Assembly (NCBI GenBank): GCA_038244715.1
Contig: JBBRTE010000014.1
Span: forward strand, 61,775-125,774
DNA length: 64,000 nucleotides
Source of the DNA: Thermoanaerobaculia bacterium
GTDB taxonomy: Bacteria > Acidobacteriota > Thermoanaerobaculia > Gp7-AA8
Direction: 5' to 3'
In this document: in pieces, positions 43,649 to 46,608 of the stretch
Layout of the letters: each line of letters starts with the position of its first letter
Numbering within the stretch: the stretch's first letter is position 1
Position numbers and translations under genes: made by a program
Notes under the pieces: model-generated
The model's database searches: none
What the model was told of the DNA's origin: nothing
The model's input: the letters and a program-made list of their open reading frames with translations, nothing else

Positions 43649-45082
43649 CTACTCTTTCGCGGTCGGTTCGTCGAGCCTCTTCAGAATCGCAACCATTCTC
43701 GGCGCTTTTGCTTTTCCTGAATCCCGGTACTCGCGAAGGGCGGCCTTCCCCGGCTCGCCACCAGACTGAATGAGCACCGAAGCGGCCTCGTAGAGGATCA
43801 GCTCCGCGTTCTCCTGCAGCCACGGCTTGAGAATCGGAACCACGTGTTCCTTCCACCGAGCGCCTGCGATGTAGGCAGCCGCGCCGCGTACGCGGAGATC
43901 GGGCGATCGGAGGAGTTGTCGCAATTCCTCATCAAAGCCGGCGTGGGCTTTCTCCCCCAGCAGCGTCGCGGCGCCGTAGCGAATGGTGTCGTCGTCATGC
44001 TCCAGCAGCCTCACGACACCCTGTTGCACGGTAGGTGACCAGGCTCTGGCAGCTTCCTCCAACGCCATTCCGGCCACATACGGATCAGCGTCTCCGAGCA
44101 GTTGTACGGCACTCGCACCGCCCTTGCGTTTCGATGCGTATTGCGCTTGACCGAGCTCGGTTCCCACCGATCGAATTCGGCCCTCGGCATACTCGGAGTC
44201 GTAGAAATCAGGATCGATGAAGTACGCATCGAGGTAGTACCGAAGCGCCTTCTCCGGATCCTTCGTCACCTTCAGGAAGTAGCGGCCGGTCCATCCCTGA
44301 ATGTGTGCGGAATGCGGGTCGAGCTTCGCAGCCGTTTCGAATTCGGAAGCCGCCTCGGGGAGCTTGCCGGCGTCCTGCAGGAGAGTGGCGAGCGTGTAGT
44401 GGAGGTCCGCACTCTCGGGATACTTCGCGAGTGCCTCGGTCGCCGCCGAACGGGCGGCGCCGGGATTGCTCTTGACCAGCGATTGGATCTTTTCCAGGGA
44501 CGCGGGCAGCGATTTCGGATGGGCGTTCAGCCAGCTCTTCTCGAGAGCCGCGGCCTCTTCCTTGCGATGATCGCGCCGGAGTACTTCGGCGAGCACGCTG
44601 ATGAACTCGTAGGAATCCGGCTGGAGCGCGATCGATCGGCGAAGGTGCGTCTCGGCGCTCTTCCATTCTCCGCGCGAGAGATAGACATCGGCGAGGCGTC
44701 GATGCGTCTCCGCGTCCTCCGGAGTCTTCGTCAGCTCGGCGACGAGTGCTCGCTCCGCTTCCGGCCCGTTTTCAAAATCGTCGTGGTGATAGACGACCTG
44801 CACCGCGTGCGCGAAGGCCGCCTCGTCAAAGTGCGACCGTCGCGCTTCTTCCGAGACAAAGAAGCCCGTGAGCCGTTGGCCATGTCCGGCCAGATACCAG
44901 GCCAGCCGTAGATGTGCCTCGGCACTGAAATAGTGCTCGGCGAACTCCCGGCGCGCGGCGAGCAGTCCGGGATCCTCGGCGCCGCGCGAAGAGCCTGTGA
45001 GAGCGAACACGACAAACAGTGAGCACAGAAGCATGCGAGGCATGGATCGCGGCATGGCCACTCCGAGTTTGGTCTCGGCCAT
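43649..45082 (-). CDS. Exported TPR + HEAT-repeat protein
   Basis: Signal peptide; TPR-like central repeats; HEAT-like VRLLEHDDDTIRYGAA, LRSPDLRVRGAAA. Confidence 0.75.
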   Translation of the reverse strand: MAETKLGVAMPRSMPRMLLCSLFVVFALTGSSRGAEDPGLLAARREFAEHYFSAEAHLRLAWYLAGHGQRLTGFFVSEEARRSHFDEAAFAHAVQVVYHHDDFENGPEAERALVAELTKTPEDAETHRRLADVYLSRGEWKSAETHLRRSIALQPDSYEFISVLAEVLRRDHRKEEAAALEKSWLNAHPKSLPASLEKIQSLVKSNPGAARSAATEALAKYPESADLHYTLATLLQDAGKLPEAASEFETAAKLDPHSAHIQGWTGRYFLKVTKDPEKALRYYLDAYFIDPDFYDSEYAEGRIRSVGTELGQAQYASKRKGGASAVQLLGDADPYVAGMALEEAARAWSPTVQQGVVRLLEHDDDTIRYGAATLLGEKAHAGFDEELRQLLRSPDLRVRGAAAYIAGARWKEHVVPILKPWLQENAELILYEAASVLIQSGGEPGKAALREYRDSGKAKAPRMVAILKRLDEPTAKE

Positions 45083-45111: not shown

Positions 45112-45146
45112 CGTGAAACGAGGCGCAGGCGGTCGCCTGCGCCTCG
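45112..45146 (-). terminator. Intrinsic terminator of the 45157-45807 gene
   Basis: Perfect 13-bp arms CGAGGCGCAGGCG/CGCCTGCGCCTCG (45119-45146), followed by TTTC on the minus strand. Confidence 0.75.
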
Positions 45147-45156
45147 GAGAAGACCA

Positions 45157-45807
45157 TTAGCCCAACAGCTCGGCCAGGCGGTCGAAGTGCTCGCTCCATG
45201 CCCTCTTCATCGCATCGGCGGCCGCCTTGTCGGGCAACTTCTGATGCTGAATCGCGACGACGCTCTTCGTCGGACCCTTCGACAGAAAACCGAGTTGGAC
45301 GGGCGTGCCGTCGTCCCATGCAATCCGCATTCGTTTCCCGATCGCGGAAGACTTCACGGAGACCTTAACCGGCAGCCACGTCCTGCGTGTCCGTGAATTC
45401 GCGAATGCGTTGAAGAGCGTTTCCAGCGGCACGTTGAACGTCCGGCTCTTGCTTGCTTCATAGCCGCCGTCGCGCCGCTGGCCCCTCGTGCGCAGGCCGC
45501 GGATGCGCTCGTAGCCGACGGTGACCATCTGGGACCACCAGCTGGGAACGCCGAGGGAGGATAGGTAGGCGGCGATCTCGCCGTGGGGCCTTTCCGCGGC
45601 GCGTGCGTTGTCGAGTACCGCAACCCATTCTGCCCAGTTGCGGCCGGAGCCTTTTTGAACCGAGTCGTCGCGCATGCCTGCGACGGAGGCGTAGTCGGGT
45701 TCCGGTGCGCTGGGCTTCACCAAATGCAGGCGGGCAGCGGTGTACGCCTCGCCGGTCTTCTGCATACGGGCACGGACCAGGCGCTTGAGGTCTTTCTGTT
45801 TCGGCAT
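45157..45807 (-). CDS. Hypothetical protein: basic N-terminal helix + DUF4287-like helical part + SRPBCC/AHSA1-like C-terminus
   Basis: PKQKDLKRLVRARMQKTGEAYTAAR; GRNWAEWVAVLD...WWSQMVTVGYE; AAGGAG RBS at 45814-19. Confidence 0.7.
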   Translation of the reverse strand: MPKQKDLKRLVRARMQKTGEAYTAARLHLVKPSAPEPDYASVAGMRDDSVQKGSGRNWAEWVAVLDNARAAERPHGEIAAYLSSLGVPSWWSQMVTVGYERIRGLRTRGQRRDGGYEASKSRTFNVPLETLFNAFANSRTRRTWLPVKVSVKSSAIGKRMRIAWDDGTPVQLGFLSKGPTKSVVAIQHQKLPDKAAADAMKRAWSEHFDRLAELLG

Positions 45808-45841
45808 CACGATCTCCTTCAGTCAAGTCACGAGCGATGCT

Positions 45842-45940
45842 CCCCAGCAGCGTCGTCCGCGACGACGAAGGTTCGTTTTACCGATTCGGGAGTGTGCCCC
45901 CCTTTGCCTCGGACGCGGTCTTCGCTGGGGGAAGACGATC
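45842..45940 (-). ncRNA. Candidate structured cis-regulatory RNA (unnamed)
   Basis: Three hairpins plus a loop CCCCAGC complementary to a downstream GCUGGGG; a G-U pair works only on the mRNA strand. Confidence 0.55.
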
Positions 45941-46006
45941 GAGGTTCGGCGTGAATCAGAGCCGTTTTGGGAATGTAGTCCTGTCGTGTCTGCGATGCAA
46001 GTTCCG

Positions 46007-46588
46007 CTACGGGGCACCTATCCGTTGCTCCACCGCCGCGAGCTGGGCAGTCAATGCATCGAGTCGTTTGAGCAGCTCCGTGTGGCGTAACTCGTCCATC
46101 GGAGGATTTTTTCGCTTGATGACGAACGCCCCGCCTGGCTCGAGCACGCAGTTCTCGACTTCGTGGATGCCGTCGAAGCCCTGACGGCGGACGACACTCT
46201 GCAGCTCCGCGATTGTGATCAGCTCGCGTGCCATCTCCCTCTTCTGGATCTCGCCCTCTTTGATGAGTGTCGAGGGCTTTCCTTCCAGCACCTCGTCGAG
46301 GCGGTGGTGCTTGAAAAGGAACCGCACCACCACGTAGTTGATCACCAGCAGCGAGGTCGCACCGACGATCCCGCCGGTGAGGGAGTTGTCATCTCCAATG
46401 ATCGCGTTCTGAACTGTGTTCGACAGCGAGAGCAATACGACGAGATCAAACGGATTGAGCTGCGCCAGCTCCCGTTTCCCGAAGACCCGCAGCAGGACCA
46501 CGAGAAAGATGTAGACGATGATCGGCCGGATGATCTTCTCGAGCAGTGGGATCGGCAGCGTGAAGAGGTGTGTAGCGATTGCGTGCAT
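46007..46588 (-). CDS. DUF421/YetF-family membrane protein
   Basis: GKRELAQLNPFDLVVLL, EGKPSTLI, VLEPGG. Confidence 0.9.
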   Translation of the reverse strand: MHAIATHLFTLPIPLLEKIIRPIIVYIFLVVLLRVFGKRELAQLNPFDLVVLLSLSNTVQNAIIGDDNSLTGGIVGATSLLVINYVVVRFLFKHHRLDEVLEGKPSTLIKEGEIQKREMARELITIAELQSVVRRQGFDGIHEVENCVLEPGGAFVIKRKNPPMDELRHTELLKRLDALTAQLAAVEQRIGAP

Positions 46589-46608
46589 GGAACTATGATG
46601 CACCTTCG

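What the first reader, a model, noticed from the sequence alone, without database searches (positions are those of the whole stretch)
45808..45945. Candidate new structured RNA with pseudoknot/switch potential in a 5' leader
Seen, 5'->3' on the mRNA (minus) strand: P1 GUCUUC/GAAGAC (45936-31/45923-18) with loop CCCCAGC; P2 CCGA/UCGG, a purine-rich GGCAAA/GAA internal loop, and GGGGG/CUCCC (contains a G-U pair valid only on this strand); P3 CGUCGU/ACGACG (45867-62/45856-51); then GCUGGGG (45848-42), exactly complementary to the P1 loop; then about 22 nt to the AAGGAG RBS. This gives a long-range pseudoknot or two mutually exclusive folds just upstream of the RBS, as in riboswitches and autoregulatory leaders. 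It matches no riboswitch consensus I know. I have an unverified recollection of similar CCTTTGCCTCG...CGCTGGGG leaders before actinobacterial genes with the same N-terminal peptide. The gene has its own strong terminator, so RNA plus gene look like a portable module. This is my best candidate for an undescribed system.
Basis: partly seen in the sequence, partly recalled or inferred. Interest (0 to 1): 0.75.

Follow-up and report, generated by a model that had tools for sequence, protein, structure and literature searches.

The report
New leader RNA tied to N-terminal peptide
The finding is real and larger than described: a 161-base folded RNA at the start of an mRNA, absent from Rfam, hides the ribosome-binding site and in many bacterial phyla always precedes genes that begin with the same 30-residue basic peptide, whatever protein follows.

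Summary
Window 45965-45805 (minus strand) is a 161-nt 5' UTR with its own promoter.

- **Fold:** five helices (P0-P4) and two long-range pairings. PK1 is a 7-bp kissing loop, CCCCAGC with GCUGGGG. PK2 joins the P0 loop to GAAUC just after P3.
- **Ribosome-binding site:** the base of the long P4 hairpin pairs an anti-SD (CCUUC) with the AAGGAG site.
- **Covariation:** all helices covary in two alignments (78 and 101 leaders, about 93% of cells paired against 54-61% when slid by one column, 0/500 shuffles). PK1 occurs as at least eight different complementary loop pairs.
CCGA/UCGG and the CGUCGU/ACGACG hairpin are not the conserved fold.
- **Databases:** no Rfam 15 family matches.
- **Gene link:** the RNA always precedes ORFs starting MP..KD[LF]KR.VR.RM.KTGE.YT.AR, a predicted basic helical hairpin. 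That peptide is fused to unrelated domains: DUF4287-like+SRPBCC, Clp_N, BtrH_N+DUF4872, WD40, C-N hydrolase.
- **Range:** Acidobacteriota, Gemmatimonadota, Planctomycetota, Chloroflexota, Actinomycetota (Lentzea, Nonomuraea) and Rhizobium plasmids.

Best reading: a translational control leader, most likely bound by its own product's N-terminal peptide. A small-molecule riboswitch is the main rival. The effector is inferred, not shown.

The parts
45972..46000 (-). Sigma-70-like promoter: -35 TTGCAT (46000-45995), 17-nt spacer, -10 TACATT (45977-45972). Predicted transcript start is near 45965.
   Evidence: Read. The same TTGnnn-17-TAnnnT lies at a fixed distance before P0 in most of 79 related loci. 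The simple scan did not call it.
45805..45965 (-). Whole leader RNA, 161 nt including the AUG.
   Evidence: Covariance model R1 gives 146 bits, E 5e-38, and this is the only copy in the 64-kb window. No Rfam family matches.
45948..45963 (-). P0, the 5' hairpin (GGC...GCC in the window, GGCGN/NCGCC in the consensus). Its loop GAUUC (45957-45953) is the 5' strand of pseudoknot PK2.
   Evidence: 84-86% of cells paired, with double changes such as C-G to U-A.
45883..45887 (-). PK2 3' strand GAAUC, which pairs with the P0 loop GAUUC (45957-45953).
   Evidence: 94.6-97.7% paired; 3-4 of 5 pairs show changes on both sides. RNAalifold predicted this pairing on its own. Variants: GAGCC/GGCUC, GGUCC/GGACC, GCCGG/CCGGC in Lentzea.
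45907..45944 (-). P1, CCUCG (45944-45940) with CGAGG (45911-45907), enclosing P2.
   Evidence: Covaries, for example CCCC/GGGG in Latescibacterota and CCUCC/GGGGG in L202. Recovered by RNAalifold.
45918..45936 (-). P2 hairpin GUCUUC/GAAGAC with 7-nt loop CCCCAGC (45930-45924).
   Evidence: 6 of 7 (A1) and 7 of 7 (A2) pairs show changes on both sides; about 95% paired.
45888..45906 (-). Nearly invariant core: junction CAAAG plus P3 GGGGG-CACA-CUCCC.
   Evidence: GGCAAAGGGGGG and ACUCCCG are invariant or nearly so in 78 leaders. P3 covaries in the type-B variants, GGGGAC/GUCCUC.
45816..45871 (-). P4, a long imperfect hairpin. Its base P4a, CCUUC (45871-45867) with GAAGG (45820-45816), sequesters the SD. 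Its terminal loop is GCUGGGG (45848-45842).
   Evidence: Every homologue folds as one extended hairpin. P4a is about 89% paired, with C-G to U-A switches in 21-35 sequences and 6/6 pairs double-changed in A2. The three pairs that close the loop are 93% paired.
45842..45848 (-). PK1 3' strand GCUGGGG (P4 loop), which kisses the P2 loop CCCCAGC (45930-45924).
   Evidence: 98-99% paired. At least eight complementary versions across lineages: CCCCGGC/GCCGGGG, CUCCAGC/GCUGGAG, CCUCAGC/GCUGAGG, CCCACGC/GCGUGGG, CCCUGCGC/GCGCAGGG, UCUCACGCA/UGCGUGAGA, CCCAUCG/CGAUGGG.
45805..45819 (-). Shine-Dalgarno AAGGAG (45819-45814), 6-nt spacer, start codon AUG (45807-45805).
   Evidence: The start position is conserved in 158 homologues.
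45718..45807 (-). Codons 1-30, the conserved N-terminal peptide MPKQKDLKRLVRARMQKTGEAYTAARLHLV.
   Evidence: Residues M1 K5 D6 K8 R12 R14 T18 G19 E20 Y22 A25 R26 are invariant in the 18 diverse peptides of alignment A3; D6 is replaced in the type-B variants. Synonymous sites vary freely, so selection acts on the peptide, not on RNA. AlphaFold2 predicts two helices, 4-18 and 22-30, followed by a disordered linker. No Pfam, NCBIfam or PDB sequence match.
45157..45807 (-). 216-aa gene: N-peptide, linker, DUF4287-like helical domain, Aha1/SRPBCC domain.
   Evidence: Pfam AHSA1 3.4e-05. DUF4287 is weak. The AF2 model has pLDDT 90.8, and Foldseek's top hits are Aha1/SRPBCC structures.
45116..45146 (-). 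Terminator-like hairpin (12-bp GC-rich stem) followed by UUU, 10 nt after the stop codon.
   Evidence: z -2.47. The U tract is short, and the consensus scan did not call it.

Best explanation
Window 45965-45805 (minus strand) is the 5' untranslated leader of a monocistronic mRNA. It folds into a compact RNA.
- A 5' hairpin P0.
- A P1/P2 stem-hairpin.
- A nearly invariant core, GGCAAAGGGGGG-CAYA-CUCCC (P3).
- A long hairpin P4.

Two tertiary pairings tie these together. The P0 loop pairs with the strand just 3' of P3 (PK2). The P2 loop forms a 7-bp kissing complex with the P4 loop (PK1). The base of P4 pairs an anti-SD sequence with the Shine-Dalgarno site, so the folded RNA blocks 30S binding and gates translation initiation. 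This much is shown by covariation; I put the structural and cis-regulatory part at about 0.9.

Inferred: the effector that sets the gate is the N-terminal 30-residue basic helical hairpin of the protein encoded downstream. It would bind the conserved core and lock the SD-sequestering fold, giving autogenous feedback, possibly in cis as the peptide leaves the ribosome. Leader and peptide would then be a two-part cassette that has been joined to unrelated C-terminal domains and moved between phyla. The confidence given here is for the whole statement, including this effector.
For: **Structure.**
- 93.0% and 93.6% of cells are paired in two alignments, against 54-61% when the partner is slid by one column. 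21 and 30 pairs show double changes. 0/500 shuffles reach the observed values.
- RNAalifold recovers PK2, P1, P2, P3 and the P4 tip de novo.
- PK1 occurs in at least 8 complementary versions.

**SD sequestration.** P4a covaries (CCUUCG/CGAAGG to CCUUUG/CAAAGG). In most divergent lineages examined (for example L267, L207, L211, L258) the base of P4 still pairs with the SD or with the bases just before the start codon. For Lentzea the folds did not settle this.

**5' UTR status.** A promoter lies at a fixed distance. RNA-run contigs start within 10-30 nt of the predicted 5' end in Lentzea-like organisms, and none cover the region upstream.

**Coupling to the peptide.**
- 115 of 120 loci chosen by an RNA pattern alone are followed by the peptide. 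The other five are three contig ends and two degenerate relics.
- 79 of 80 loci chosen by the peptide alone have the RNA.
- The RNA precedes peptide fusions to Clp_N, BtrH_N+DUF4872 and WD40, CN_hydrolase on Rhizobium plasmids, and other domains.

**The peptide itself.**
- It is under protein-level selection.
- It is always N-terminal.
- It carries 8 basic and 2 acidic residues in its first 26 positions.
- It is predicted to be a two-helix hairpin on a flexible linker.
- RNA subtype (P3 type A or B) tracks peptide subtype (D6 or non-D6; 12 of 12), not the C-terminal domain.

**Context.** There are no conserved neighbouring genes that would point to a metabolic pathway.
Against: - No binding data exist, and RNA binding by the peptide is inferred from charge and context only.
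- Leader and first codons are physically contiguous. Their co-inheritance and the subtype correlation could reflect linkage rather than interaction.
- The high conservation of unpaired core nucleotides and the doubly pseudoknotted fold are equally typical of small-molecule riboswitch aptamers.
- P4 is stable on its own (-20 to -38 kcal/mol). This raises the question of how the gene is ever expressed, and no conserved alternative 'ON' fold was found.
Confidence: 0.45

Rival explanations
1. A small-molecule or ion riboswitch. The P0-P3 doubly pseudoknotted domain is an aptamer. Ligand binding stabilises, or breaks, the kissing contact with P4 and so sets SD access. The peptide-bearing proteins share a function related to that ligand, as the glutamine-II (Downstream-peptide) riboswitch controls IF17.
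For: - About 40 nearly invariant nucleotides lie in junctions and loops.
- There are two covarying pseudoknots and an SD-containing expression platform.
- Conservation spans many phyla.
- The SRPBCC domain is a small-ligand-binding fold.
Against: - The downstream proteins share only a 30-residue peptide. Their other domains are unrelated (Clp_N, WD40, C-N hydrolase, BtrH_N).
- No transporter or biosynthetic genes are ever associated, and there is no conserved neighbourhood.
- No conserved alternative pairing for a switch was found. The anti-SD to core pairing would be mismatched in most sequences (reasoned from alignment A1).
Confidence: 0.28
2. A physical or constitutive element with no specific ligand: an RNA thermometer, an mRNA-stability or 5'-end protection structure, or a fold opened by a general factor (helicase, S1, another protein or sRNA). 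It travels with the peptide only because of linkage.
For: - The SD sits in the basal helix P4a, which internal loops separate from the rest of P4.
- The 5'-terminal hairpin P0 starts at the predicted transcript start.
- Partner domains hint at proteostasis or stress (Aha1-like, Clp_N).
Against: Thermometers and stabilisers do not normally need about 40 invariant nucleotides and two covarying tertiary pairings kept across many phyla. The near-absolute two-way coupling to the peptide is more than linkage alone predicts over such distances.
Confidence: 0.12
3. The leader is not mainly a regulator but a stable RNA partner. After synthesis the peptide holds the folded 5' RNA, or a processed copy, as a ribonucleoprotein needed for the protein's function, as with omega RNA/IscB or IS110 bridge RNA encoded in 5' UTRs.
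For: The same coupling evidence as the best explanation. The fold is compact and highly conserved. A recent preprint raises RNP formation as one option for unannotated motif-protein pairs in general (10.64898/2026.10.21.760802).
Against: The SD and start codon are built into the structure, which argues for translational control. No variable single-stranded 'guide-like' segment is present. No evidence of processing was found; contig-level RNA data cannot show it.
Confidence: 0.1

Closest known systems
Autogenous translational operators of RNA-binding proteins (ribosomal-protein leaders such as the L20 pseudoknot operator of infC-rpmI-rplT, S15, ThrRS operator). Named from my own knowledge of the field.
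   Same: A structured, often pseudoknotted 5' leader that includes or occludes the SD and is proposed to bind the product of the gene it precedes.
   Different: Here the presumed RNA-binding unit is only a 30-residue N-terminal peptide shared by unrelated proteins. No cellular RNA target that the leader might mimic is known. Binding is untested.
Translational riboswitches with pseudoknots or loop-loop contacts that control the SD (SAM-II, preQ1-II, ZTP, guanidine-II). Named from my own knowledge of the field.
   Same: A conserved aptamer-like core, long-range pairings, and an SD sequestered in a helix coupled to the fold. Guanidine-II also uses a loop-loop contact between two hairpins.
   Different: No sequence or structure match to any Rfam family. 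The kissing helix is 7 Watson-Crick pairs and should form without a ligand. The gene association is to a peptide, not to a pathway.
Downstream-peptide motif (glutamine-II riboswitch, Rfam RF01704). Named from my own knowledge of the field.
   Same: An RNA motif recognised through its constant association with ORFs that share a short conserved peptide.
   Different: Different sequence and fold. That peptide is a small stand-alone protein family in cyanobacteria, whereas here the peptide is an N-terminal module on many multidomain proteins.
Arginine-rich-motif peptide/RNA pairs (lambda and P22 N peptide with boxB). Named from my own knowledge of the field.
   Same: A short basic helical N-terminal peptide that could recognise a folded RNA element.
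   Different: Those act in transcription antitermination on small hairpins. Here the RNA has 161 nt and two pseudoknots, lies on the peptide's own mRNA, and contains the SD.
Unnamed 'cluster #566,452' ncRNA motif in the bioRxiv preprint 10.64898/2026.10.21.760802 (Oct 2026)
   Same: A covarying candidate ncRNA directly upstream of Pfam-unannotated proteins with a YndB-like (SRPBCC) domain.
   Different: Identity cannot be checked: no sequences, taxa or supplements are held. The preprint places the YndB-like domain at the N terminus, whereas here it is C-terminal. The passages retrieved do not mention the peptide, the pseudoknots or a mechanism.

Membership tests
Any Rfam 15 family (4227 models) | A covariance-model match at the gathering score, or at least a suggestive E-value. 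| tested here: not met
   Whole window at gathering score: 0 hits. Region 45700-46100 at E<=10: only two chance hits on the opposite strand. Eight divergent homologous loci at E<=1: only chance hits elsewhere in those loci.
Structured cis-regulatory 5' leader RNA | A conserved secondary structure supported by compensatory changes, on the mRNA strand. | tested here: met
   G-U pairs and strand-specific scores also fit: 146 bits on the minus strand against 19 on the plus strand.
Structured cis-regulatory 5' leader RNA | Located between a promoter and the start codon of a consistently associated gene. | tested here: met
   Promoter at a fixed distance. 115/120 and 79/80 association. RNA contigs begin near the predicted 5' end (contig-level, weak).
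Translational control by SD sequestration | The SD is base-paired in a conserved, covarying helix. | tested here: met
   P4a is 89-90% paired, and 6/6 pairs are double-changed in A2. The pairing holds in most divergent lineages. An effect on translation was not measured.
Riboswitch | Direct, specific binding of a small molecule or ion by the RNA. | not testable with these tools
   Needs in-line probing, ITC or SHAPE with candidate ligands.
Riboswitch | Associated genes point to one metabolite or pathway. | tested here: not met
   Only the N-terminal peptide is shared. The C-terminal domains are unrelated and the neighbours are not conserved.
Autogenous protein-binding operator | The encoded protein binds its own leader and represses translation. 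| not testable with these tools
   Only indirect support: strict coupling, a basic helical-hairpin peptide, and subtype co-variation.
Autogenous protein-binding operator | One protein element is common to all regulated genes. | tested here: met
   The N-peptide is the only common element across at least 7 domain architectures.

The most novel reading that the evidence does not exclude
A portable two-part autoregulatory cassette. A roughly 30-residue arginine/lysine-rich helical hairpin at the N terminus of a protein recognises the doubly pseudoknotted leader of its own mRNA, possibly co-translationally and in cis, and closes the ribosome-binding site. Evolution has grafted the cassette (promoter, leader, peptide) onto unrelated enzymes, scaffolds and co-chaperone-like domains and moved it across at least nine phyla and onto conjugative plasmids. 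The leader may mimic a cellular RNA, for example a ribosomal RNA site, to which the peptide tethers these proteins.
Probability: 0.35. Interest if true: 0.9.

Novelty: new variant of a known kind. Interest (0 to 1): 0.8.

Why it matters
- **A large, widespread RNA class missing from Rfam.** It has five helices, a kissing loop and a second pseudoknot. It occurs mostly in poorly studied soil phyla, but also in culturable Lentzea, Nonomuraea and Rhizobium leguminosarum-group strains where it can be tested.
- **An unusual association.** It is not tied to a gene family or pathway but to a 30-residue N-terminal peptide on otherwise unrelated proteins.
- **If the peptide is the effector**, this is a compact, transferable peptide-RNA feedback module. 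It would be useful for synthetic biology and a new example of how regulation travels with domain shuffling.
- **If the effector is a metabolite**, this is a new orphan riboswitch class that would assign a shared physiological role to several domains of unknown function (DUF4287-like, DUF4872, SRPBCC proteins).

Tried and rejected
- **Single-sequence folding.** The z-score is only -1.48 and the MFE mixes the domains, so it is uninformative.
It looks 87% 'paired' only because both strands are conserved. It conflicts with the covarying P1 and PK2. Rejected.
It is 70-81% pairable, but all homologues fold these bases into the long P4 hairpin. I kept it only as a possible alternative fold.
- **The RNA structure extending into the coding region.** This would explain peptide conservation. 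Rejected because invariant residues have free third codon positions.
- **A conserved ON-state pairing of the anti-SD with the core CAAAGG.** It is perfect in Gemmatimonadota but mismatched in most Acidobacteriota, and the core never co-varies. Not supported.
- **Second copies.** Weak second model hits in L178 and L210 (18 bits) are only the next gene's RBS region.
- **Searches that gave nothing useful.**
  - The search for related loci with the Clp_N fusion protein found only itself.
  - PDB sequence searches with the protein and with the peptide profile found nothing relevant.
  - The phage collection has no peptide match.
  - Earlier findings of this scan held nothing relevant.
  - Literature searches found no description, apart from one possibly related unnamed cluster in a 2026 preprint.

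Full report
**What is at the coordinates.**
- GUCUUC (45936-45931) and GAAGAC (45923-45918) around the loop CCCCAGC (45930-45924);
- GGGGG/CUCCC (45901-45897 / 45892-45888);
- GCUGGGG (45848-45842);
- AAGGAG (45819-45814), six bases before an ATG at 45807-45805.

The ORF lister starts the gene at GTG 45810. In 158 homologues the conserved start is the ATG, giving MPKQKDLKRLVRARMQKTGEAYTAARLHLV.... Alone, the sequence is unremarkable: MFE z = -1.48. No Rfam 15 family matches the window at gathering score, nor the region at E<=10.

**Relatives.**
- Searching one genome per species with the 216-aa protein gave 80 loci. They come from Acidobacteriota (mostly Thermoanaerobaculia, the closest relatives at up to 71% identity), Gemmatimonadota, Planctomycetota, Latescibacterota, Krumholzibacteriia and Limnocylindria. 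The window is therefore not actinobacterial.
- The 170 nt upstream of the start are strikingly conserved in all loci that are not cut by a contig end.
- A promoter-like TTGnnn-17-TAnnnT ends about 7 nt before the first helix in most of them. In the window this is TTGCAT 46000-45995 and TACATT 45977-45972, so the transcript should start near 45965.
- After the stop codon lies a 12-bp GC-rich hairpin followed by UUU (45146-45116).
- Neighbouring genes are not conserved.
- The unit is thus promoter, leader, gene, terminator.

**The fold.** From the alignment I derived five helices and two long-range pairings.
- P0: a 5' hairpin (45963-45948).
- P1: CCUCG/CGAGG (45944-45940 / 45911-45907), enclosing P2.
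- Junction CAAAG and P3.
- P4: a long hairpin (45871-45816) whose terminal loop is GCUGGGG and whose base pairs CCUUC with GAAGG of the SD region.
- PK1: the P2 loop with the P4 loop, a 7-bp kissing complex.
- PK2: the P0 loop GAUUC (45957-45953) with GAAUC (45887-45883) just 3' of P3.

**Counts on 78 leaders (A1).**

| Helix | Cells paired | Pairs with changes on both sides |
|---|---|---|
| PK1 | 98.3% | 4 of 7 |
| PK2 | 97.7% | 4 of 5 |
| P2 | 95.6% | 6 of 7 |
| P4a | 88.8% | 4 of 6 (C-G to U-A in 21 sequences) |

Over the whole structure, 93.0% of cells are paired against 54% when the partner is slid by one column. 21 pairs show changes on both sides, and 0 of 500 shuffles reach the observed values.

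**A second set.** These loci were chosen only by the DNA pattern GGCAAAGGGGGGNNNACTCCCGG and aligned by a covariance model built without the pseudoknots. The result was the same: 93.6% paired, 30 pairs with double changes, PK1 99.3%, PK2 94.6%, and P4a 89.7% with 6 of 6 pairs double-changed. RNAalifold, run blind on A1, recovered PK2, P1, P2, P3 and the tip of P4. Each homologue's 3' domain folds as one extended hairpin, although the stems differ in sequence between clades.

**PK1 across divergent lineages.** The kissing loops are rewritten together:
- CCCCGGC/GCCGGGG;
- CUCCAGC/GCUGGAG;
- CCUCAGC/GCUGAGG;
- CCCACGC/GCGUGGG (Lentzea, Nonomuraea and other Actinomycetes);
- CCCUGCGC/GCGCAGGG (Limnocylindrales);
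- UCUCACGCA/UGCGUGAGA (a Gemmatimonadota MAG);
- CCCAUCG/CGAUGGG (Acidimicrobiales).

CCGA/UCGG uses bases that belong to P1 and PK2, and only one of its pairs shows a double change. The CGUCGU/ACGACG hairpin is 70-81% pairable but competes with P4. I treat the first as wrong and the second as, at most, an alternative local fold.

**What the RNA goes with.**
- Of the 120 loci found by the RNA pattern alone, 115 are followed 70-90 nt later by an ORF starting MP..KD[LF]KR.VR.RM.KTGE.YT.AR. The other five are three contig ends and two degenerate relics.
- Conversely, I took 80 loci chosen only by the peptide, with an Acidimicrobiales peptide as the lead query. In 79 of them the covariance model finds the RNA immediately upstream. 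The exception, a Pseudonocardia MAG, shows a diverged core and the PK1 complement by eye.
- The peptide is the only element these genes share. It is fused to:
  - a DUF4287-like domain plus an Aha1/SRPBCC domain, the majority and the window's own gene, sometimes with DUF1801 added;
  - three Clp_N repeats;
  - BtrH_N+DUF4872 (Lentzea, Nonomuraea and others) and a WD40 propeller;
  - a carbon-nitrogen hydrolase on conjugative megaplasmids of Rhizobium ruizarguesonis, R. leguminosarum and R. anhuiense;
  - several unannotated domains.
- All of these carry the RNA, at 52-79 bits for the Clp_N, Rhizobium and N. gerenzanensis copies and about 20-36 bits for the most diverged actinobacterial ones. 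None of the variants hits Rfam.
- A profile of the 34-residue peptide finds 3374 clusters at 50% identity among 1.84 billion representatives.

**The peptide is a peptide, not RNA.** At invariant residues (K5, K8, R12, R14, T18, G19, E20, A25) codon positions 1-2 have zero entropy, while position 3 has about 1 bit. AlphaFold2 (pLDDT 90.8) predicts helices 4-18 and 22-30, then a disordered linker (31-38), a small helical domain and the SRPBCC fold. Foldseek's top hits are Aha1/SRPBCC proteins. The peptide has 8 basic and 2 acidic residues in its first 26 positions. It has no Pfam, NCBIfam or PDB match.

**Two subtypes.**
- Type A has P3 GGGGGG-CAYA-CUCCC and peptide K-D-[LF]-K-R.
- Type B has P3 GGGGA...UCCUC and a non-Asp residue at position 6.
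- All 12 non-D6 peptides have type-B RNA.
- BtrH_N+DUF4872 proteins occur with both types (L267 type A, Lentzea type B).
- The RNA type therefore follows the peptide and not the C-terminal domain. Because the leader and the first codons are adjacent, linkage alone could also produce this pattern.

**Expression.** In three RNA-type public runs, contigs matching a Lentzea locus begin at 739-760, where the model hit begins at 729. None cover the 80 nt upstream. This is contig-level evidence and weak, but it fits a 5' UTR that starts at P0.

**Mechanism.**
- Shown: the conserved fold includes the SD in a covarying helix, so the folded leader should block initiation. No U-rich terminator follows P4, so control is translational rather than by attenuation.
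- Inferred: the effector.
- I favour the N-terminal peptide of the product (autogenous control, about 0.45), for four reasons.
  - It is the only shared feature.
  - It is always N-terminal.
  - It is basic, helical and flexibly tethered.
  - No pathway signal exists.
- A small-molecule riboswitch (about 0.28) remains fully possible given the invariant core.
- A ligand-free physical element (about 0.12) and a stable RNP role (about 0.10) are less likely.
- One open problem for all models: P4 is stable on its own, and I found no conserved ON-state alternative.

**Novelty.** The motif is not in Rfam 15. It was not found in the discovery papers checked or in text searches. One October 2026 preprint shows an unnamed covarying motif upstream of unannotated proteins with a YndB-like domain. 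It may be the same RNA, but no sequences are held. The passages retrieved do not mention the peptide coupling, the pseudoknots or a mechanism.

Noticed in passing
L025:1393-1503 (same contig as L257): A natural deletion variant of the leader in an Acidobacteria gp7 MAG. P0, the P1 5' strand, P2 and the distal P4 with GCUGGGG remain. The P1 3' strand, the core, P3, the PK2 3' strand and the anti-SD are missing, so the SD should be constitutively free.
   Followed up: partly
L117:2967-3089 and L118:6011-6144: Degenerate or truncated copies of the 5' domain with no peptide gene downstream. L118 comes from a genome that also has an intact copy (L125). They look like relics of decayed modules.
   Followed up: partly
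L004:716-902, L013:1324-1503, L016:1332-1503, L077:1325-1503: Lineage-specific insertions are tolerated at two sites. One is GA-rich repeats (ATGACGG-like) or an extra hairpin in the linker between PK2 and P4. The other is an extra hairpin between P2 and the P1 3' strand. These mark solvent-exposed, non-essential positions.
   Followed up: no
L243, L256, L264, L265 (Lentzea), about 65-120 nt into the leader: A perfect 10-bp alternative pairing, CUGACCGGCG/CGCCGGUCAG, between the P2 3' strand and the region after P3. It is mutually exclusive with P2, PK1 and PK2. It was seen only in four closely related species, so its significance is unknown.
   Followed up: no
window 45808-45810: The ORF lister begins the gene at GTG 45810. 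Homologues show that the real start is ATG 45807, and the GTG lies in the SD-AUG spacer.
   Followed up: yes
window 46007-46603 (-) and 43649-45082 (-): The flanking genes on the same strand are a YetF/DUF421 membrane protein upstream and a 477-aa TPR+HEAT repeat protein with a signal-like N terminus downstream. Neither is conserved next to the module in other genomes.
   Followed up: partly
L158:992-1150 and downstream: In a Chloroflexi UBA4730 contig the peptide gene is frameshifted after about 35 codons; the DUF4287-like part continues in another frame. Many metagenomic cluster representatives (for example P0126, P0138) show similar frame changes. These are either sequencing errors or frequent decay.
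   Followed up: no
P1 helix, window 45944-45940 / 45911-45907, and core 45906-45897: P1 (ACCUC/GAGG) and the purine run GGCAAAGGGGGG resemble an anti-SD/SD duplex and an SD-like sequence. This raises the untested idea that the leader mimics the 16S 3' end or competes for the anti-SD strand.
   Followed up: no
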